From Chloroflexia bacterium (GTDB lineage: Bacteria; Chloroflexota; Chloroflexia; DTKN01): a stretch of 64,000 nt of DNA. Shown piece after piece: positions 9,893 through 53,068 of the stretch (its first letter is position 1; each line of letters starts with the position of its first letter). A program made the translations under genes and the position numbers. The stretch is from the NCBI GenBank assembly GCA_049970175.1, contig JBMFNL010000002.1:2722-66721 (forward strand), written 5' to 3'. The notes under the pieces were generated by a model. It ran no database searches, was not told where the DNA came from, and worked only from the letters and a program-made list of their open reading frames with translations.

Positions 9893-9938
9893 TGGACGGG
9901 GCGTTTCGCGAAGCGCTCCTTGCTCGCCGGAGGAAGAG

Positions 9939-10634
9939 ATGCTGTACCTGCCGGTTGTGCTTCTGGCCTATCTGATCGGCTCCTTTCCCAGCGGCGTGGT
10001 CGTCGTGCGCCTCGTCCGAAGGATGGATGTGCGGCGGATCGGCAGCCGGCGCAGCGGGGCGACCAATGTTTTCCGGGCGGCGGGGCTGCTGCCGGCCCTG
10101 GCGGTCTTTTTTCTGGACGTGCTGAAGGGGACGGCCTCGGTCTGGCTGGGGAGGTGGCTGGCCGGGTCGGCCTGGGTGCAGGAGCGCTGGCAGGCGCTCT
10201 TTTCGCGGCCGGCCGGCTGGCCCCTGCCGGCCGAGGCCTTTTCTCCCCTCTATGCGGGCCTCCTTTGCGGCCTGGCCGCCATCGCCGGCCATAACTGGCC
10301 GGTCTATATCCGCTTCCAGGGCGGACGGGGAGTGGCCACCACGCTGGGCACGCTCCTCCCTCTGGCCCCGGCCGTGGCCGGCGCGGCCTTTCTTCTGGGC
10401 CTCATCGTCGTGCTCGTGAGCCGCTACGTCTCCCTGGGCTCGATCACCGGGGCCGCCCTGGTCCCGCCCGGCCTCCTCCTGCAGTCCCTGGTCCTGCCCT
10501 TTTCCCTTCCCCTCTTCCTCTACGGCCTCCTGGTCGCGGGGCTCCTCATCTTCCAGCACCGCGACAACATCGTCCGCCTTCTTTCCGGGACGGAGCGCCG
10601 GTTGGGCCGGCCGGCCGAACCTCCCCCGGCCTGA
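9939..10634 (+). CDS. plsY: glycerol-3-phosphate acyltransferase PlsY (paralog 2, with a ~30-aa insertion)
   Basis: GSFPSG...SGATNVFRA...HNWPVYIRFQGGRGVAT...HRDNIVRLLSGTERRLG. Confidence 0.75.
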   Translation: MLYLPVVLLAYLIGSFPSGVVVVRLVRRMDVRRIGSRRSGATNVFRAAGLLPALAVFFLDVLKGTASVWLGRWLAGSAWVQERWQALFSRPAGWPLPAEAFSPLYAGLLCGLAAIAGHNWPVYIRFQGGRGVATTLGTLLPLAPAVAGAAFLLGLIVVLVSRYVSLGSITGAALVPPGLLLQSLVLPFSLPLFLYGLLVAGLLIFQHRDNIVRLLSGTERRLGRPAEPPPA

Positions 10635-30738: not shown

Positions 30739-31245
30739 TCATTGTCCGCAATAGGGGCAGACCGTCCAGGTCAGGTCCATCAGCCGGCCGCAGGCCGGAC
30801 ACTTTTTTCGGAGCGGGGTGTGACAGTAGGGGCAGAGGAGAAAATCCACCTCCACCCCTCGCTGACAGGTGGGACAGACGGGGCGCTCCTCGATGTCCTG
30901 CATGATGTATTCCCGCTCCAGGGCGCGGGCATAGCCCTCGGCCAGGGTCTCCCGGGGGCGAAAAAGGAGGTAGAGCCAGTAGCCCGGCAGGAAGAGGAGG
31001 AGCACCAGCAGGGTGGCGAGGAGTTGCGCCGGCAGACTCTCGCTGCGGGCGCGGATGTCCTGGTAGGTCCAAACCACCAGGCCCAGCCAGACGACGGCTA
31101 GGTAGACGCCCAGGACGTAGCCGACGATCTCCAGAATGGGCAACGTCCGGACCAGAAACGCCTGAACGGTTTCCAGCGGGCCGGTCGGCGTGATCGTCGC
31201 CGTGCCGGTAACGGTTTGTGCCAGATGCAGACTCCAGGGATCCAT
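30739..31245 (-). CDS. membrane protein with C-terminal double zinc ribbon, hypothetical
   Basis: Two TM helices; CPTCQ...CPYC...CPAC...CPYC. Confidence 0.4.
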   Translation of the reverse strand: MDPWSLHLAQTVTGTATITPTGPLETVQAFLVRTLPILEIVGYVLGVYLAVVWLGLVVWTYQDIRARSESLPAQLLATLLVLLLFLPGYWLYLLFRPRETLAEGYARALEREYIMQDIEERPVCPTCQRGVEVDFLLCPYCHTPLRKKCPACGRLMDLTWTVCPYCGQ

Positions 31246-31273
31246 GAAAAAGAGCCTCCTTGGTCGCGGGATT

Positions 31274-31602
31274 TCAGGCCAGACGCCGCCATTCCTCGAT
31301 CGGCAGGATGAAGACGTGCGCGCCGCCGACCTGCACCTCCACCGGGGCCGGGGGAAAGAGTCCGCCGGTTTCCAGGAGTGGGGAGACCGGGCTCAGGTAG
31401 CGGGTGCGGGTGTGGCAATGCGTTCGGATCACCTCCAGGGCCTTTTCGACGGCTCCCTCGTCCACGGCGATGAGCAGGGTATCGTTGGCCTCCATGAGGA
31501 AGCCGCCGACGCTGGCGATATGGGTGAAGTTGAAGCCGGCCTCCGCCAAGGCCCGGCTCAGGTCCTCCAGGTCTCGCCGCTGGATGATGACGATGAGGAG
31601 TT

Positions 31603-47550: not shown

Positions 47551-49220
47551 CTACCGCACCCCCCACAGCCGCACCGTGCCGTCACGCGACCCTGAGGCGA
47601 GGAAGTTTCCGTCGGGGGAGAAGGCCACGCTAAAGACCCGAGAGGTGTGCTCCAGGGTGCGCAGGAGTTCGCCGTCGGCGGCCCGCCAGAGGCGCACCGT
47701 GTGGTCCTCCGACCCCGAGGCCAGGGTCTGCCCGTCGGGGGAGAAGGCCACGCTCTCCATTGGGGCGCCCGTTTCGATGAAGCGCACCTCCTCCAGGGTC
47801 TGAGCGTCGTAGAGGTACACCCCGATGGAAGAGGCCACCGCCAGGAATCGGCCGTCGGGGGAGTAGGCGATTTCGTGTACCATCCCCTTGCCCCAGCGGG
47901 CCAGTTCGCGCACCCGGTCGGCGTTCTCGGGAGAGAGGGCTGCGGCGGGTTGGGGCACGGGCGTGCCGGAAAGGACGGGAAGCGGCAACGGAGTCGGGGT
48001 AGGCGTCGGGGTGGAGGTGGATGTGGGCATCGGGGTCGGAGTGGAGGTGGCCGTCGGCGTGGAGGTGGGCCGCGCCGTGGGCCCGAGGGCGGCGACGGGG
48101 GTGGGGGAAACCGCCGGCCGGCCCAGCACTCCGCCCATGTAGAGGCCGGCCAGCACCAGGAGCACCACCGCCAGGAGGCCCGCCCCGGCCGGTACCCAGG
48201 GCCGTCGGGCGGCCCCTTTCCGCGGCGCCGCAGGTCGGGGCAGCGGTGGGGGGGCAGGCCGGGGTGGAGGTGGCGCCGGGAGCAACTCCGTCGCTACTTC
48301 GGTTTCCTGCAGCACGGTCTCGGCGCCGCCCTCACCCCACTCCCCCGGCCCCCTCTCCCCTCTCCCAATGGGAGAGGGGGTTGGGGGTGAGGGGTGAGGA
48401 CAGCGCCGCCGCCAGCGCGGCCATGTCCGGGTAGCGGTCCTCCGGGGCCTTGGCCAGCGCCTTGAAGAGCACCCGCTCCGCCGCCTCCGGCAGGTCCGGC
48501 GCGTAAGCCCTCGGCCGGGGAAGCGGCTCCGTGGCTTGCTTCAAAAGCACCGCCATCGGCGTATCGGCCGTGTAGGGCTTGCGCCCGGTCACCAGTTCGT
48601 AGAGCACCACTCCCAGGGCATAGACGTCGGCCCGGGCGTCCACCGGCCGGCCCAGCCCCTGCTCCGGAGCCATGTACTCCGGCGTGCCCACCCCCCCGTC
48701 CCGGTGAGCGTTGTCTCCTCGCTCTCCAGGAGTTTGGCGATGCCAAAGTCGGAAAGCATGGGCTCCCCGGAAAGGGTGATGAGGATGTTGGAGGGCTTGA
48801 CATCGCGGTGGATAAAGCCCCGCTGGTGGGCAAAGTGCAGGGCGCGGGCGATGGGGAGGAGCAGGCGCACCGCCTCCTCCCAGGGGAAGGGCCGGCCGGC
48901 CCGCGCCTCCAGCAACTTCTTGAGCGTCCCGCCGGGGAGATACTCCATCACCAGGTAGGGGGAGCCCTCGTGCTCGCCGTAGTCGATGAGGGCCACGATG
49001 TTGGGATGGGTCAGGCGGGCCAGGGCCTTGGCCTCCCGCTCGAAGCGCCGGAGGATGCGCTCCCGTTGTTCGGGGGGGAAGGCCCCCTTGCGGATGACCT
49101 TGAGGGCCACATCGCGCTCCAGCCGGGTATCATAGGCCCGGTAGACGGTGGCCATCCCCCTTCCCCCAGTTGCTCGACGATGTGGTAGCGCCCGATGGAC
49201 TGGCCGACGAGAGAGCCCAT
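47551..49220 (-). pseudogene. Hanks-type Ser/Thr protein kinase with TM helix and C-terminal WD40 domain, disrupted by three frame changes
   Basis: Successive pieces in different frames: MGSLVGQSIGRYHIVEQLGEGG | [10 protein letters not shown]...[10 protein letters not shown]...DFGIAKL...TGTGG | [11 protein letters not shown]...[10 protein letters not shown] | TM helix plus WD40 repeats. The breaks fall at a G5 run (~49156-49160, plus-strand C5), a G7 run (48689-48695, plus-strand C7) and inside the palindromic repeat (48331-48399). Confidence 0.55.
48331..48399. repeat. G/C-rich palindromic repeat element, copy 1
   Basis: CTCACCCCACTCCCCCGGCCCCCTCTCCCCTCTCCCAATGGGAGAGGGGGTTGGGGGTGAGGGGTGAGG; close to the reverse complement of copy 2; flanked by GCGCCGCC on both sides. 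Confidence 0.6.
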
Positions 49221-49258
49221 CTGCCCCTCCTTTCGTCGAACGGCGTCTTTCTGGAAAT

Positions 49259-49339
49259 ATTTTACCACGCCGGCCGGCGCAGGTCAAACCGGCCTGAAAT
49301 GGCAACCAGGTTGACAGCCCCACGGGCGAGTGTTAGAAT
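49259..49339. promoter_or_regulatory. divergent promoters: minus TTGACC-N17-TAAAAT (kinase) and plus TTGACA-N17-TAGAAT (ccmE operon)
   Basis: Read directly; a ~165-nt leader containing several hairpins precedes ccmE. Confidence 0.45.
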
Positions 49340-49505
49340 GCTTTCGTCGCCGGGTGGGCGGCCTCGAACCGGATGGCGACGTTTCTCCATAGGCCAGGCC
49401 CGGCCGAGCCGGTGGAACGTGCACCGGCCGTATGTGGAAGCGGTCTACCCAACTGCGGTCCGCCTGCAGGGCAATACAGGTGGGTTGGTTTCTGGAGGTA
49501 AAGCC

Positions 49506-49910
49506 ATGAAGCCGGTATACATCATCGGGGGCATCGTCATACTGGCGGCGGTTGTGTTAGGGGCTTTGGCCTTGGTCAATACCCTCACCCCCTACGTCTC
49601 CATCGCCGAGGCGCGGGCCACCGGTCGCACCGTGCAGGTGCACGGTTTCCTCAAGGAGACGCTGGGCTATGATGCGGAGGGCCGCTTCCGCTTCGTCCTG
49701 GTGGATGAAAAGGGCGATGAGATGGCCGTGGCCTACGGTCAGGCCAAGCCGGCCAACTTTGAGCAGGCCACCGGCTTTGTTGTCATCGGCCGCTACGATG
49801 CCGCCGCCCAACTTTTCCTGGCCGAGCAACTCCTGGTCAAGTGCCCCTCCAAGTACCAGGAGCAGGGGGAGGAGTACCGGCATCAGCAATCCGGGGAGAG
49901 CGCCCCATGA
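49506..49910 (+). CDS. ccmE: cytochrome c maturation heme chaperone CcmE, CxxxY variant
   Basis: N-terminal TM helix; OB-fold region; C-terminal KCPSKY in place of the canonical HxxxY. Confidence 0.65.
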   Translation: MKPVYIIGGIVILAAVVLGALALVNTLTPYVSIAEARATGRTVQVHGFLKETLGYDAEGRFRFVLVDEKGDEMAVAYGQAKPANFEQATGFVVIGRYDAAAQLFLAEQLLVKCPSKYQEQGEEYRHQQSGESAP

Positions 49911-52465
49911 CGGTCGGACCGCTGTTCCTGGTCGGGGCCTTCCTCTCGGCTCTGGGGGGGATGGGGGCTTCCTGGCAGGTCATTCGGGGAGACCGCCGGG
50001 CCCTGCGTTGGGCCCGCCTCCTGGCCGTTCTGGCCCTGGTCCTGGTGGGCGTTGCCTCGGCCCTCTTGCTGGGGCTCATCCTGGCCCAACGCTACGACGT
50101 GGCCTATGTCTACCTGAACACCTCGCGCGACCTGGCCTTTTTCTACCGCCTTTCCGCCTTCTGGGCCGGTCAGGAAGGCAGCCTGCTCCTCTGGCTCCTC
50201 CTCACGGCCGTCCTGACCGTGCTCCAGATTCGCCGTGCCCGCCTGCTGGAGCCGTACGTGCTCTTTTTCCTTCTCCTCATCCAGGCCGGCCTGACCGTCT
50301 TCCTTCTGGTGGACAGTCCGTTTACGCCGACGGCCGAGGTGGTCCCGCCGGGCCAGGCGATCCTGGACGGCCAGGGGTTGAAGCCGATCTTGCAGAATGT
50401 CTGGATGGTGGCCCACCCGCCGATGCTCTTCCTGGGCTATGCCGGGATGGCCGTGCCCCTGGCCTATGCGCTGGCCGGCCTCTGGCGCCGTGATTACGAG
50501 GGATGGGTGTGGCCGGCCCTTTCCTGGGGACTTTTGGGTTGGCTTTTTCTGGGCTTGGGCATCCTCCTGGGCGCTTTCTGGGCCTATGAGACGCTGGGTT
50601 GGGGCGGCTACTGGGGTTGGGACCCGGTGGAGAACAGTTCCCTCCTCCCCTGGCTCACCGGAACCGCCCTCCTCCACGGCCTGCTCATCCAGCGCTATCG
50701 CCGGCGGCTGGGCCACGGCAACTTGATCCTGGCTTGGCTGACCTATCTCCTGGTGCTCCTGGCCACCTTCCTGACCCGCAGCGGCGTCCTGGGGGCAGCC
50801 TCGGTACATTCGTTTGCGCCGAGCGCCCTGACGCCGTGGATGCTGGGGCTGATGGCGCTGGTGGCGGCGGCCGGCGCCATTCTACTGGCCTCGCGCTGGA
50901 ACGACCTTCCGCCCGGCCCGGTCTTTGCCGGGCCGCGGAAGGGAAGGGGCCGCCCCATCCAGGGGGAAACGGCCGGTACGGTGGGCCCCAACCTGGCCTC
51001 CTGGTTTTCCCGGGATTTCACCTTTCTCCTGACCATCCTGCTTCTGCTCCTCGTGGCCCTCCCCATCCTGGCCGGCACCTTGCTACCCGTGTTTTCCCAG
51101 TGGTTCGGGCGGCTGACGCAGGTGGACGTGTCGTTCTATCCCCAGACGACCGGACCGGTCCTGGCCGTGTTGCTCCTGGTGTTGGGGCTGTGTCCACTTC
51201 TGGGCTGGTCGGGAAGCGCGATCGGGCGGCTGGGCCGGATGCTCATCGTCCCGGTGGTTCTGGCCGTCGGTGCGCTTGGCGCGGCCGCCCTGCTGGGGGC
51301 CGGCCGTCTCGATTCTCTGTTTTTGATCTTTCTGGCGGTCCTGGCCCTGGCCTCGAACGTGGCGATGGTGGTGCGTACCGTTCGCCGGGGATTTTTACCT
51401 CTGGGCGGGTATCTGGCCCACATCGGTCTGGGCTTGCTGGTGGTCGGTGTGGTGGCTTCGTCGGTCTATAATGTGGACTATCGGGATGCGCAGGGGCGCT
51501 CTTCCCTGCTTCTGCCGGCGAATCGGGCGCAGGAGGCGCTGGGGTATCGTCTCACCTTTGTTCAGCGGCAGGAAAGCGGTGTTCCTTCCCAAGAGCAACA
51601 AACCCATCCGGCCCGCCCGGTGTATTATATCCTGGTGGAGCGCGGTTCCGAGCGCTTTCTGGCCCGGCTGGAGGAACTGGAATGGAACGCCCAGGACGGC
51701 AGCCTGGGAACGTGGCCCTATGTGGGGCGTTATCTGACCCATGACCTCTATATCGCCGCCCATGCCTATTTCCCCGGCAGTGGGGAGGAGGCCGTCCTGG
51801 AGCCGGGGCAGGAGGCCGTGCTGGCCGGCCGTACCTTCGTCCTCCGGGAAGTGCGGGCCGCGCCTCCCTATGTCCAGGTAGCGCTGACGGTGCGGGAAGC
51901 AGGCATCAGCCGGACCATCACCCCCACCTACGCCATGGCGGGCACATCGGCCCACGGCCGGCCGGCCTCCCTCCCCGACGGTACGGTGGTCTCGGTCGAG
52001 GAGGCCGGTTTCAGCCTGGACCTCTTTGAGGGACAGCCGCTGGCCATGGGCACCTATACGGTGACCCTGCGCGACCTGGTCGTGCTTCAACACAACCTCG
52101 TGACCCAGACGGTGGCCGGGGCGGTGATCGAGTGGGCCGCTCCGGCGGGCATCACCGTCATCACGCCGACCTGGGTGGTGAGTAGCGAGGGTGCCGAAGG
52201 CCCTCCGCTGACGCTTCCTTCCGGCGAGACGGTGCGCCTCGACGGGATGGACGTGACCGGCGGCTTCGTCCGGCTGTTGCTCTCCCGGCCGGGCCTGGTC
52301 TGGCTGACGGTGCAGCGTCCCGAGGACCTGCTCGGCACCCTGGTGGTGCAGGTCAGCATCAAGCCCGGCATCAACCTGCTCTGGGCGGGCGGGGTGCTCC
52401 TGCTTTTGGGGACGGCCGTGGCCCTGGTCCGGCGCTGGCGGGAGGGCCGACAGTTATTGACATAA
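49907..52465 (+). CDS. ccmF: cytochrome c-type biogenesis heme lyase CcmF
   Basis: WGGYWGWDPVENSSLLPWL WWD motif; 874-aa polytopic protein; ATGA overlap with ccmE. Confidence 0.8.
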   Translation: MTVGPLFLVGAFLSALGGMGASWQVIRGDRRALRWARLLAVLALVLVGVASALLLGLILAQRYDVAYVYLNTSRDLAFFYRLSAFWAGQEGSLLLWLLLTAVLTVLQIRRARLLEPYVLFFLLLIQAGLTVFLLVDSPFTPTAEVVPPGQAILDGQGLKPILQNVWMVAHPPMLFLGYAGMAVPLAYALAGLWRRDYEGWVWPALSWGLLGWLFLGLGILLGAFWAYETLGWGGYWGWDPVENSSLLPWLTGTALLHGLLIQRYRRRLGHGNLILAWLTYLLVLLATFLTRSGVLGAASVHSFAPSALTPWMLGLMALVAAAGAILLASRWNDLPPGPVFAGPRKGRGRPIQGETAGTVGPNLASWFSRDFTFLLTILLLLLVALPILAGTLLPVFSQWFGRLTQVDVSFYPQTTGPVLAVLLLVLGLCPLLGWSGSAIGRLGRMLIVPVVLAVGALGAAALLGAGRLDSLFLIFLAVLALASNVAMVVRTVRRGFLPLGGYLAHIGLGLLVVGVVASSVYNVDYRDAQGRSSLLLPANRAQEALGYRLTFVQRQESGVPSQEQQTHPARPVYYILVERGSERFLARLEELEWNAQDGSLGTWPYVGRYLTHDLYIAAHAYFPGSGEEAVLEPGQEAVLAGRTFVLREVRAAPPYVQVALTVREAGISRTITPTYAMAGTSAHGRPASLPDGTVVSVEEAGFSLDLFEGQPLAMGTYTVTLRDLVVLQHNLVTQTVAGAVIEWAAPAGITVITPTWVVSSEGAEGPPLTLPSGETVRLDGMDVTGGFVRLLLSRPGLVWLTVQRPEDLLGTLVVQVSIKPGINLLWAGGVLLLLGTAVALVRRWREGRQLLT

Positions 52466-52522
52466 ATAAACGTCGGCTTTGGGGATGAGCCGACCGCTTC
52501 AGGCTGAACGAAGGAGGAAAGG

Positions 52523-53068
52523 ATGCAACAGGCGCAGCACAGATGGCTCGTGGTGGTCCTGGCGGCTCTGGGCGGCCTGGTCCTAGGGATGGTGCTCGGC
52601 ACCCTGTTCGGCGGCGTCGCCGGCTACATCCTGGGGCGAGGCTCTCTGCCTCTGGTGGAGGTCGAAGCCACTCCCACCCCGCCGCCGCGCCTGACGGTGC
52701 CGGCACTTCCCTGGAGGTGGCCTTTCTGTCCCCCCTGTCCGGAGACTCCTCCGGAAGCCCGGCCGGAGGAAAGGCCCACGCCGCTTCCGGGGGTGTTGGG
52801 AGCCCGGGTGGAACGGGTATTGCCGGACACGCCGGCCGAGGAGGCCGGCCTGCGGCCGGGGGATGTGATCGTTGCCGTGAACGGTGAGCGGATCACGCCG
52901 GAACGCTCCCTGGCCGACCTGCTCGCCCGCTACCGCCCGGGCGACACGGTCACGCTCACGGTACGGCGGGACAACGAGAGGCTGGAAATCCAGGTACGCC
53001 TGGGCGAGCACCCGGAACGGCCCGGCCAGGCGTACCTGGGCATCTATTTCACCCCGTCCCGGCCCTGA
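52523..53068 (+). CDS. membrane-anchored PDZ-domain protein with a CPPC motif (possible CcmH/CcmG-like thiol-disulfide role)
   Basis: TM helix, then WPFCPPCPE, then a PDZ-like LGARVERVLPDTPAEEAGLRPGDVIVAVNGERI. Confidence 0.45.
   Translation: MQQAQHRWLVVVLAALGGLVLGMVLGTLFGGVAGYILGRGSLPLVEVEATPTPPPRLTVPALPWRWPFCPPCPETPPEARPEERPTPLPGVLGARVERVLPDTPAEEAGLRPGDVIVAVNGERITPERSLADLLARYRPGDTVTLTVRRDNERLEIQVRLGEHPERPGQAYLGIYFTPSRP

What the first reader, a model, noticed from the sequence alone, without database searches (positions are those of the whole stretch)
49311..53068. Minimal ccmE(CxxxY)-ccmF cluster followed by a PDZ protein with a CPPC motif
CcmE here carries the C-x3-Y heme-binding variant (KCPSKY), which is typical of archaeal and some anaerobic lineages, instead of HxxxY. 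It is translationally coupled to a full-length CcmF with the WWD motif. No ccmABCD or ccmGH genes are adjacent. The next gene instead encodes a membrane-anchored protein with a periplasmic CPPC motif fused to a PDZ domain, which could substitute for the CcmH apocytochrome thioreductase. The operon has a strong promoter and an unusually long structured leader of about 165 nt.
Basis: partly seen in the sequence, partly recalled or inferred. Interest (0 to 1): 0.55.

Follow-up and report, generated by a model that had tools for sequence, protein, structure and literature searches.

The report
Cysteine-type ccmE-ccmF haem-attachment gene pair
This is an ordinary two-gene piece of the known cysteine-type ("System I*") machinery that attaches haem to c-type cytochromes, in a Chloroflexia bacterium. 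The small PDZ protein next to it is most likely just a neighbour, not a replacement for the missing CcmH.

Summary
The genes are real. ccmE (49506-49910) has the haem-binding motif KCPSKY. It overlaps ccmF (49907-52465, 852 aa) by ATGA. CcmF has the WWD motif and four invariant histidines. A 181-aa membrane-anchored PDZ protein with a CPPC motif follows (52523-53068). A near-consensus promoter sits at 49311-49339.

None of this is unusual for the lineage. All 120 best CcmE homologues carry C-x3-Y. The published System I* description names CPSKY as the commonest motif, lists Chloroflexi among its hosts and shows that CcmH and CcmG are dispensable.

The idea that the PDZ protein replaces CcmH is not supported:
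- CPPC occurs only in the seven closest homologues.
- It lies in a low-confidence proline-rich linker, not in a thioredoxin or CcmH fold.
- One CPPC-bearing orthologue follows an ABC ATPase gene with no ccm gene nearby.
- CcmEF pairs 80% and 59-66% identical lack the PDZ gene.
- The gene's constant neighbours are the downstream aminotransferase and ThiS genes.

The leader is long (about 160 nt) but folds no better than shuffled sequence (z = -0.02). It is not conserved and matches no Rfam family.

I could not test whether ccmABCD lie elsewhere in this genome. Relatives carry ccmABCD-EF or ccmCD-EF clusters.

The parts
49311..49339 (+). Predicted sigma-70-type promoter of ccmE (TTGACA, 17-nt spacer, TG, TAGAAT)
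   Evidence: Matches 11 of 12 positions and has an extended -10. Near-consensus promoters also precede ccmE in L001, L062 and L007, but only about 53-65 nt from the start codon.
49346..49505 (+). 5' leader of about 160 nt, with no evidence of a regulatory RNA
   Evidence: Folding energy is -69.7 kcal/mol against a shuffle mean of -69.6 (z = -0.02). No Rfam family matches. The sequence is not alignable with L001 or L007.
49506..49910 (+). ccmE: membrane-anchored haem chaperone of the cysteine type (Cys113 in KCPSKY, codons 49842-49856)
   Evidence: Pfam CcmE 5e-14. A profile of homologues best matches the Desulfovibrio vulgaris Cys-type CcmE 2KCT, with the Cys aligned. In the Shewanella CcmE (1J6Q) the haem-binding His occupies that column. 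A hydrophobic helix spans residues 4-28. A GGAGG ribosome-binding site lies 7 nt upstream.
49907..52465 (+). ccmF: haem lyase (852 aa) with WWD motif WGGYWGWD (50600-50623), His170, His257, His301 and His505, and an enlarged C-terminal periplasmic domain
   Evidence: ATGA overlap with ccmE. Pfam Cytochrom_C_asm and CcmF_C. Matches 6ZMQ at 2e-54. The histidines and the WWD motif are invariant in alignment A4.
52472..52494 (+). Small hairpin in the ccmF-PDZ spacer, with no U-tract
   Evidence: Eight base pairs; the centroid fold containing only this hairpin is -13.1 kcal/mol and the 57-nt spacer as a whole gives z = -1.1. A hairpin of different sequence lies at the same place in L001. Its function is unknown.
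52523..53068 (+). Membrane-anchored single-PDZ protein (181 aa). CPPC at residues 69-72 (52727-52738) sits in a proline-rich linker. This is a neighbour gene, probably co-transcribed here, and is not shown to belong to the ccm system.
   Evidence: PDZ_2 7.7e-17. The AlphaFold2 model shows a helix at 2-38, a linker at 39-90 with pLDDT 48-61 and no secondary structure, and a PDZ domain at 91-179 with pLDDT 92-98. Best fold matches are the RseP and MucP PDZ domains. No promoter or terminator is predicted in the 57-nt spacer.

Best explanation
The locus is a stand-alone ccmE-ccmF module of the known cysteine-type variant of cytochrome c maturation System I (System I*), in a Chloroflexia bacterium known only from metagenome assemblies.

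How it most likely works (all steps inferred from the family; none tested here):
1. CcmE is anchored in the membrane by its N-terminal helix. On the outer face it receives haem from a CcmC or CcmABCD complex encoded elsewhere in the genome.
2. CcmE holds the haem covalently through Cys113 of KCPSKY.
3. CcmE passes the haem to CcmF.
4. CcmF uses its WWD domain and four histidines to attach the haem to CxxCH sites of apocytochromes, without CcmH.

The two genes are translationally coupled and driven by a sigma-70-type promoter. The long leader is species-specific and has no demonstrable structure.

The downstream PDZ gene encodes a small extracytoplasmic, membrane-tethered, circularly permuted PDZ protein. 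It belongs to a Chloroflexota family whose members are generally unrelated to ccm genes. It is probably co-transcribed here simply because ccmEF lies upstream of it in this sub-lineage.
For: Identity of the module:
- Domain and structure matches for CcmE and CcmF.
- The CcmF histidines and WWD motif are invariant across six Chloroflexota CcmFs.
- All 120 best CcmE homologues carry C-x3-Y. VKCPSKY or VQCPSKY follows ccmC in 34 of 45 Chloroflexota loci.
- The literature names CPSKY as the commonest variant motif, lists Chloroflexi as hosts, and reports that the Desulfovibrio system makes holocytochrome c without CcmH or CcmG (PMC3601427). In Methanosarcina, CcmABCEF suffices and the motif Cys is required (PMC9084895).

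Arrangement in relatives:
- Herpetosiphonaceae have ccmABCD-E-F followed by thioredoxin-like genes (L006). Another relative has ccmCD-E-F (L008).
- Closer relatives have bare ccmEF pairs in varied surroundings (L007; L062 and L063 beside multihaem cytochromes).

The PDZ gene:
- ccmE-ccmF-PDZ-aminotransferase(-ThiS) order is seen in L001, L009, L010 and L064.
- In L067 and L065 the CPPC-bearing orthologue follows an ABC ATPase gene. No ccm gene lies within 10 kb upstream in L067, and the aminotransferase is still downstream in both, with ThiS beyond it in L067.
- More distant PDZ homologues (35-48% identity) lack CPPC and are not near ccm genes.
- CPPC lies in a low-confidence linker.
Against: - I could not show that ccmABC(D) exist elsewhere in this genome. 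The genome-collection scan with CcmC recovered only Chloroflexales and Herpetosiphonaceae.
- The PDZ gene is on the same strand, 57 nt downstream, with no predicted promoter or terminator between.
- The string PW-x-WPFCPPCPE is invariant in seven sequences that are otherwise only 72-74% identical and whose flanking linker varies. The motif is therefore under selection for some function. That function is unexplained.
Confidence: 0.8

Rival explanations
1. The CPPC-PDZ protein is a clade-specific accessory factor of cytochrome c maturation. It would be tethered beside CcmF. Its PDZ domain would hold apocytochrome or CcmF tails, and its CPPC pair would keep the CxxCH cysteines reduced, replacing CcmH or CcmG.
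For: - Same strand and a 57-nt gap, with no promoter or terminator predicted.
- The adjacency is kept in at least three species-level lineages: the window with L009 and L010, L001, and L064.
- The WPFCPPCPE island is invariant within a variable linker.
- The predicted N-in, C-out topology places CPPC on the same side of the membrane as CcmE and CcmF (plus the positively charged N-termini of homologues).
Against: - The CPPC-bearing orthologues in L067 and L065 are not next to ccm genes.
- CcmEF pairs at 80% identity (L062, L063) and at 59-66% identity (L007) have no PDZ gene downstream.
- Chloroflexales clusters use DnaJ-thioredoxin-like neighbours instead.
- CPPC is absent from every PDZ homologue listed at 57% identity or less.
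- There is no thioredoxin fold or CcmH-like helical bundle: the region has pLDDT 48-61 and no secondary structure, and no matching Pfam or NCBIfam hit.
- System I* is reported to work without CcmH or CcmG.
Confidence: 0.07
2. The ccmEF pair is a second, dedicated haem-lyase module, analogous to NrfE for special haem sites. It would serve a particular set of cytochromes and exist in addition to a full ccmABCDEF cluster elsewhere in the genome.
For: - In L062 and L063 an 80%-identical ccmEF pair lies directly after a multihaem cytochrome, NrfD and 4Fe-4S gene cluster.
- One metagenome (3300009503) holds two different ccmEF modules, L007 and L062.
- NCBIfam's best hits for CcmF are the CcmF/NrfE subfamily models, all below cut-off.
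Against: - In the window the pair sits among housekeeping genes with no cytochrome nearby.
- No known dedicated lyase system duplicates CcmE as well (my own knowledge).
- The two modules in one metagenome may come from two different organisms.
- I did not detect any second ccmEF copy for this genome.
Confidence: 0.08
3. A truly minimal system: this clade lacks ccmABCD, and CcmE and CcmF alone load and transfer haem.
For: - No ccmABCD lie within the 64-kb window.
- None lie within 8-10 kb of ccmEF in L001, L007 or L062.
- The CcmC scan of the genome collection did not return this clade.
Against: - That scan used two very specific peptide patterns taken from Chloroflexales sequences. It may miss a diverged CcmC or genomes that are not species representatives.
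- Every characterised System I, including the archaeal one, needs CcmABC to make holo-CcmE (PMC9084895).
- Scattered ccm genes are normal in archaea and are already seen in L008, where ccmAB are absent from the cluster.
Confidence: 0.04

Closest known systems
System I* (variant cytochrome c maturation System I with Cys-type CcmE). Described by Allen et al. 2006, tested for Desulfovibrio by Goddard et al. 2010, reviewed in Stevens et al. 2011 (PMC3601427).
   Same: The CcmE has Cys in place of the haem-binding His, in the commonest CPSKY form. There is a full CcmF with the WWD motif and four histidines. No CcmH lies in the cluster. Chloroflexi are already listed among the hosts.
   Different: Here ccmE and ccmF form a two-gene unit detached from ccmABCD. 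CcmF is about 200 aa longer than the Thermus (660 aa) and E. coli proteins because of a larger C-terminal periplasmic domain. Function has not been tested in this lineage.
Streamlined archaeal Ccm machinery of Methanosarcina acetivorans, CcmABCEF (PMC9084895)
   Same: The CcmE has a C-x3-Y motif. The ccm genes are scattered over several loci. CcmH and CcmI are absent, and CcmG and CcdA are dispensable.
   Different: This locus is bacterial. CcmF is a single polypeptide rather than split into CcmF1 and CcmF2. Relatives do have a small CcmD-like ORF (L006, L008).
Chloroflexales and Herpetosiphonaceae ccm(AB)CD-E-F clusters (L006, L008, L011-L053)
   Same: These share the same CcmE family (50-57% identity, VKCPSKY) and the same CcmF family (41% identity, all key residues).
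   Different: Those clusters keep ccmC and ccmD, and sometimes ccmAB, upstream. They have DnaJ-TPR and DnaJ-thioredoxin-like genes downstream and no PDZ gene.
CcmH (and CcmG, ResA): apocytochrome thiol-disulfide oxidoreductases
   Same: The resemblance is superficial only: a membrane-anchored extracytoplasmic protein with one CxxC pair encoded after ccmF.
   Different: The PDZ protein has no LRCxxC helical-bundle domain and no thioredoxin fold. Its CPPC is in a disordered proline-rich linker, is not conserved outside seven close homologues, and is not consistently linked to ccm genes.
Circularly permuted PDZ domains of site-2 proteases (RseP, MucP) and PDZ domains of HtrA proteases
   Same: The fold of residues 91-179 matches these domains (Foldseek probability 1.0, target-normalised TM up to 0.84). 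The C-terminal YLGIYF strand completes the domain.
   Different: There is no protease domain, despite the NCBI label 'S1C family serine protease'. The protein is only a transmembrane anchor, a linker and one PDZ domain.

Membership tests
CcmE, cysteine type (System I*) | CcmE OB-fold domain | tested here: met
   Pfam PF03100 at 5e-14 and 52.9 bits, against a cut-off of 24.6. A profile of homologues hits the PDB CcmE entries 2KCT, 1J6Q, 1SR3 and 8CE8.
CcmE, cysteine type (System I*) | Cys in a C-x3-Y motif at the position of the haem-binding His of H-x3-Y CcmEs | tested here: met
   KCPSKY with Cys113. The Cys aligns to KCP of the D. vulgaris CcmE 2KCT and to the His of KHDENY in Shewanella 1J6Q. 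The Cys is invariant in 25 of 25 aligned homologues and in all 120 best homologues.
CcmE, cysteine type (System I*) | N-terminal membrane anchor with the domain outside the cell membrane | tested here: met
   A hydrophobic stretch spans residues 4-28 with Kyte-Doolittle values up to 2.95. The orientation is inferred.
CcmE, cysteine type (System I*) | Covalent haem binding and transfer to apocytochrome | not testable with these tools
   This needs haem staining or mass spectrometry of the expressed protein.
System I / I* as a whole pathway | CcmC (with CcmAB, and CcmD in bacteria) present to load haem on CcmE | tested here: inconclusive
   None were found in the 64-kb window. The genome-collection scan with a CcmC profile returned 50 loci, none from this clade. 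Relatives L006 and L008 have them adjacent to ccmE.
CcmF haem lyase | WWD domain (tryptophan-rich motif) | tested here: met
   WGGYWGWDPVEN at residues 232-243. The motif is invariant in alignment A4 and aligned to 6ZMQ.
CcmF haem lyase | Two periplasmic and two transmembrane conserved histidines | tested here: met
   His170, His257, His301 and His505 are invariant in six Chloroflexota CcmFs. The first three align to His residues of 6ZMQ. The alignment around His505 is less certain. Correspondence to E. coli H173, H261, H303 and H491 is from my own knowledge.
CcmF haem lyase | CcmF C-terminal region | tested here: met
   PF16327 at 9.3e-17. The region is enlarged, giving 852 aa against 660 aa in 6ZMQ.
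CcmH (apocytochrome thiol reductase) | CcmH domain with an LRCxxC motif in a helical bundle | tested here: not met
   The PDZ protein has no CcmH hit in Pfam or NCBIfam. The motif is FCPPCP. The AlphaFold2 model shows no secondary structure and pLDDT 48-61 across residues 39-90.
CcmH (apocytochrome thiol reductase) | Conserved association with CcmF | tested here: not met
   The PDZ gene is absent after ccmF in L062, L063, L007, L006 and L008. The CPPC-bearing orthologues in L067 and L065 are not beside ccmF.
CcmG / ResA / TlpA thioredoxin-like reductases | Thioredoxin fold carrying the CxxC | tested here: not met
   No thioredoxin-family hit was found. Only about 50 unstructured residues separate the transmembrane helix from the PDZ domain.
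HtrA / S1C serine protease (the name given by NCBI) | Trypsin-like protease domain | tested here: not met
   Only the PDZ part of the HtrA models matches, for example TIGR02037 positions 260-333 of 434 at 59.9 bits against a cut-off of 416. The protein is 181 aa.
PDZ domain (circularly permuted, RseP-like) | PDZ fold | tested here: met
   PDZ_2 7.7e-17 and PDZ_6 4.5e-15. The model has pLDDT 92-98 over residues 91-179, including the C-terminal strand 174-179. Foldseek hits the RseP and MucP PDZ domains at E = 2e-7 to 1e-6.
Riboswitch or structured cis-regulatory leader | Stable, conserved structure or a match to a known RNA family | tested here: not met
   z = -0.02 against shuffles. The only Rfam hit has E = 7.1 and 15 bits, against a gathering score of 70. 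The leader is not conserved in L001 or L007.

The most novel reading that the evidence does not exclude
In one narrow Chloroflexia clade, a membrane-tethered PDZ protein has acquired an invariant extracytoplasmic WPFCPPCPE motif and has been recruited into the ccmEF operon. It would act as a new kind of accessory factor for CcmH-less cytochrome c maturation, for example by holding apocytochrome or keeping its cysteines reduced. The linkage would have been lost secondarily in the L067 lineage.
Probability: 0.07. Interest if true: 0.5.

Novelty: new member of a known kind. Interest (0 to 1): 0.15.

Why it matters
Little rests on this locus. It adds another Chloroflexia example to the already described cysteine-type System I*. 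It also shows that in this clade ccmE and ccmF travel as a translationally coupled two-gene unit that turns up in different genomic surroundings.

The practical value is corrective:
- The C-x3-Y motif is the norm here.
- CcmH is not expected in this type of system.
- The neighbouring CPPC-PDZ protein should not be annotated as a Ccm component, nor as a serine protease as NCBI does.

Two small open points remain: the role of the invariant CPPC island, and the role of the enlarged periplasmic domains of Chloroflexota CcmF and CcmC.

Tried and rejected
- **Regulatory RNA in the leader.** Rfam at gathering threshold on the whole window found only a tRNA. A permissive search of 49250-49560 found only a chance hit at E = 7.1. 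Folding gave z = -0.02 and there is no conservation. Rejected.
- **Finding ccmC of the same genome.**
  - I built a CcmC alignment from L006 and L008.
  - The protein search gave 6,681 hits, but the 120 listed are mostly unnamed; the named ones are Roseiflexaceae, Herpetosiphonaceae or unclassified Chloroflexota, and none could be tied to this clade.
  - The genome-collection scan returned Chloroflexales and Herpetosiphonaceae loci and none from the relevant assemblies. Inconclusive.
  - The look-up of the PDZ protein reached two 10-15 kb contigs of other assemblies, not the 82-kb source contig.
- **Direct sequence search of CcmE against PDB.** No hit at E <= 0.1. A profile search then worked.
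- **c-type cytochromes in the window.** The only CxxCH string in a plausible ORF is in a four-CxxC zinc-ribbon membrane protein. Rejected.
- **Six-frame 'LRCxxC' matches in the fetched loci as a CcmH proxy.** They scatter over frames and strands in this GC-rich DNA and are uninformative. Discarded.
- **Literature link between PDZ proteins and CcmF.** No paper in the library holds all three terms 'CcmF', 'PDZ domain' and 'cytochrome c biogenesis'. Goddard et al. 2010 could not be read, so I cite it through the two papers that summarise it.
- **Structure prediction of CcmF.** Not attempted, because locus-derived homologues cannot be submitted and a single-sequence model of 852 aa would be unreliable.

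Full report
**1. What is in the sequence**

The window has about 68% G+C. It comes from a bacterium known only from metagenome assemblies and labelled 'Chloroflexia bacterium' by NCBI. The PDZ protein is 100% identical to a protein of that record. The same locus is found in assemblies GCA_049971335.1 and GCA_049700575.1.

Three co-directional genes occupy the flagged interval.

- **ccmE, 49506-49910 (134 aa).** A GGAGG ribosome-binding site lies 7 nt upstream. The protein matches Pfam CcmE at 5e-14. It has one N-terminal hydrophobic helix and the motif KCPSKY with Cys113.
- **ccmF, 49907-52465 (852 aa).** Its ATG overlaps the ccmE stop codon as ATGA. It matches Cytochrom_C_asm at 4.8e-32 and CcmF_C at 9.3e-17. 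It matches the crystal-structure sequence of Thermus thermophilus CcmF (6ZMQ) at 2e-54 over residues 13-551. It contains WGGYWGWDPVEN.
- **PDZ gene, 52523-53068 (181 aa).** It follows a 57-nt spacer. The protein has an N-terminal helix, a proline-rich linker holding FCPPCP (residues 68-73), and a PDZ domain (PDZ_2 at 7.7e-17).

A promoter-like site lies at 49311-49339: TTGACA, a 17-nt spacer, then TAGAAT preceded by TG. It matches 11 of 12 positions. The scanned region gave 2 such sites against 0.3 expected from shuffles.

The surrounding genes are housekeeping genes:
- Upstream and divergent: a Ser/Thr kinase.
- Downstream on the other strand: an aminotransferase, ThiS and LeuS.
- Further out: RF-1, guanylate kinase and others.

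I found no ccmA, B, C, D, G or H gene and no c-type cytochrome in the window. This rests on Pfam scans of 22 neighbouring proteins, mainly 37-62.6 kb, and on translations and a motif scan of the whole window. The only CxxCH string in a plausible ORF belongs to a zinc-ribbon membrane protein.

So the descriptive part of the finding is correct.

**2. The leader**

The predicted 5' leader is indeed long, about 160 nt. However:
- Its minimum free energy of -69.7 kcal/mol equals that of dinucleotide-preserving shuffles (mean -69.6, z = -0.02).
- No Rfam family matches it.
- Relatives also have near-consensus promoters before ccmE, but only about 53-65 nt upstream of the ATG (L001, L062 and L007).
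- The leader sequences do not align.

The 'unusually structured leader' is therefore a composition effect in GC-rich DNA and a species-specific spacing. It is not a regulatory RNA.

**3. CcmE and CcmF are standard for the lineage**

*CcmE.*
- All 120 best CcmE homologues carry C-x3-Y, almost always LVKCPSKY. They include Roseiflexaceae, Herpetosiphonaceae and a Zixibacteria genome.
- A profile of 25 of them best matches the Cys-type CcmE of Desulfovibrio vulgaris (2KCT), with the Cys aligned. It next matches the His-type CcmEs of Shewanella and E. coli. In the printed Shewanella alignment (1J6Q) the haem-binding His occupies the same column.
- A genome-collection scan seeded with CcmC found 45 Chloroflexota loci (Chloroflexus, Roseiflexaceae, Kouleothrix, Herpetosiphonaceae). 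In 34 of them VKCPSKY or VQCPSKY is encoded just downstream of ccmC.

*The literature already covers this.*
- The System I review describes 'System I*' with Cys-type CcmE.
- It names CPSKY as the commonest motif (25 of 36 bacterial genomes) and lists Chloroflexi among the hosts.
- It reports that the Desulfovibrio operon makes holocytochrome c in E. coli without CcmH or CcmG (PMC3601427).
- In Methanosarcina acetivorans, CcmABCEF suffices. The motif Cys is needed for haem binding, CcmG and CcdA are dispensable, and the ccm genes are scattered over several loci (PMC9084895).

*CcmF.* CcmF here keeps His170, His257, His301 and His505 and the WWD motif. All are invariant in six Chloroflexota CcmFs. 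The first three histidines align with histidines of 6ZMQ. It is a complete haem lyase. It is longer than usual because its C-terminal periplasmic domain is enlarged.

**4. Arrangement in relatives**

| Locus | Relation to the window | Gene order |
|---|---|---|
| L006 (Herpetosiphonaceae) | CcmE 57% identical | ccmA-ccmB-ccmC-(ccmD)-ccmE-ccmF, then a DnaJ protein and a DnaJ-thioredoxin-like protein |
| L008 | CcmE 55% identical | ccmC-ccmD-ccmE-ccmF, then a DnaJ-TPR protein and a DnaJ-thioredoxin-like protein |
| L007 | CcmE 66%, CcmF 59% | ccmE-ccmF with ATGA-type overlap, followed by a PMT_2/DUF2298 gene |
| L062, L063 | CcmE 80%, CcmF 80% | ccmE-ccmF directly after a multihaem cytochrome / 4Fe-4S / NrfD cluster, followed by unrelated small genes |
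| L001 | CcmF 83% | ccmE-ccmF-PDZ-aminotransferase-ThiS, with a different upstream neighbour |
| L064 | PDZ protein 70% identical | ccmE-ccmF-PDZ-aminotransferase (ORF sizes and positions only) |

So the ccmEF pair is a recurrent detached unit in this clade. 'Minimal cluster' describes local gene order, not necessarily a minimal pathway.

I could not retrieve the rest of this genome to look for ccmABCD. This remains the main untested point.

**5. The PDZ protein**

*Family.* The protein belongs to a family of small Chloroflexota proteins of 150-200 aa. They share:
- a transmembrane helix with a conserved GGxAGYxxGR;
- a variable linker;
- a PDZ domain;
- a C-terminal LGEHPE...YLGIYF.

*Structure.* The AlphaFold2 model gives:
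- a confident helix at residues 2-38;
- a low-confidence segment at 39-90 with no structure (pLDDT 48-61), which contains CPPC;
- a confident PDZ domain at 91-179 (pLDDT 92-98), whose last strand is the C-terminal YLGIYF.

The best fold matches are the circularly permuted PDZ domains of RseP and MucP. There is no protease domain, no thioredoxin fold and no CcmH domain.

*The CPPC motif.* CPPC is present only in the seven closest homologues (at least 70% identity). It is absent from every homologue listed at 57% identity or less. Within those seven, PW-x-WPFCPPCPE is invariant while the flanking linker varies. The motif is therefore probably functional in that clade. Its chemistry (a disulfide or metal binding) is unknown.

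*Linkage to ccm genes.*
- More distant homologues are not near ccm genes (L002, L004 and L061).
- The decisive case is the CPPC-bearing orthologue P0007, which is 74% identical. In L067 the gene order is solute-binding protein, WD40 protein, ABC ATPase, PDZ, then aminotransferase and ThiS on the opposite strand. No ccm gene lies within 10 kb upstream.
- The short contig L065 shows the same ABC-ATPase-to-PDZ junction. It comes from the same metagenome as the PDZ-less ccmEF locus L063.
- The PDZ gene's constant partners are therefore the downstream aminotransferase and ThiS genes. The ccmEF pair is a variable upstream neighbour.

**6. Conclusion on mechanism**

The best-supported reading, at about 0.8, is a System I* haem-delivery and ligation module.
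- Shown here: domain identity, the motifs, translational coupling, the promoter-like site, and the comparative gene orders.
- Inferred from the family: haem loading by a CcmC or CcmABCD complex encoded elsewhere, a covalent haem-Cys113 intermediate, and CcmH-independent ligation by CcmF.
- Probable in this species: co-transcription of the PDZ gene, since no promoter or terminator is predicted and only a small hairpin lies in the spacer. It is not shown to take part in cytochrome maturation.

Three rival readings are kept at low probability:
- The CPPC-PDZ protein is a clade-specific accessory factor (about 0.07).
- The ccmEF pair is a dedicated second lyase module (about 0.08).
- The pathway is truly ccmABCD-less (about 0.04).

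**7. Novelty and score**

This is a new member of a known kind. The unusual-looking features (C-x3-Y, no CcmH, scattered ccm genes) are the published hallmarks of System I* and of streamlined Ccm systems, and they are the norm in Chloroflexota. The one original hypothesis, that the CPPC-PDZ protein replaces CcmH, is contradicted by comparative gene order and by the predicted structure. Interest is low, at 0.15.

Noticed in passing
window 48335-49332 (- strand): The Ser/Thr kinase gene divergent from ccmE is split over two reading frames. Pfam Pkinase positions 12-163 fall in ORF 48592-49332 and positions 159-253 in ORF 48335-48691. This indicates a frameshift near 48690, from either a pseudogene or a metagenome assembly error. 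A membrane-anchored WD40 ORF (47554-48315) follows.
   Followed up: partly
window 52472-52494; L001 about 9933-9954: A small hairpin sits in the ccmF-PDZ spacer at the same place in two species but with different sequence, which suggests compensatory changes. It has no U-tract. It could be a weak terminator or an mRNA processing or stability element.
   Followed up: partly
window 51450-52400 (CcmF residues about 515-830); L006 8677-9654; L008 8676-9671: Chloroflexota Ccm proteins carry large periplasmic additions. CcmF is 780-852 aa against 660 aa in Thermus, and the window's clade has a further insert of about 75 aa. CcmC is 326-333 aa with an insert of about 100 aa. Their function is unknown. 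They could conceivably relate to working without CcmH.
   Followed up: no
L062 255-7637 and L063 255-7637: In hot-spring-type JGI metagenomes, a ccmEF pair 80% identical to the window's lies directly after a cluster of multihaem cytochromes c, a 4Fe-4S protein and an NrfD-like membrane protein. This shows that the clade makes c-type cytochromes.
   Followed up: partly
L066 1-1400: The PDZ gene is truncated to its last 39 codons. It abuts a stretch of 51.7% G+C (the rest of the contig is 67%) that carries a 394-aa ORF of unknown function. This is either an insertion of foreign DNA or a chimeric contig.
   Followed up: no
window 30742-31392 (- strand): A membrane protein ends in four CxxC pairs (CPTC, CPYC, CPAC, CPYC), a zinc-ribbon-like tail. 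It is the only place in the window with a CxxCH string and is not a cytochrome.
   Followed up: partly
window 52523-53068: NCBI names this protein 'S1C family serine protease', but it has no protease domain. Only the PDZ part of the HtrA models matches. This is an annotation error that propagates across the family.
   Followed up: yes
window 49259-49287 (- strand): A second near-consensus promoter (TTGACC, 17-nt spacer, TAAAAT with TG) faces the kinase gene, back-to-back with the ccmE promoter. L001 and L007 also show divergent promoter pairs upstream of ccmE.
   Followed up: partly
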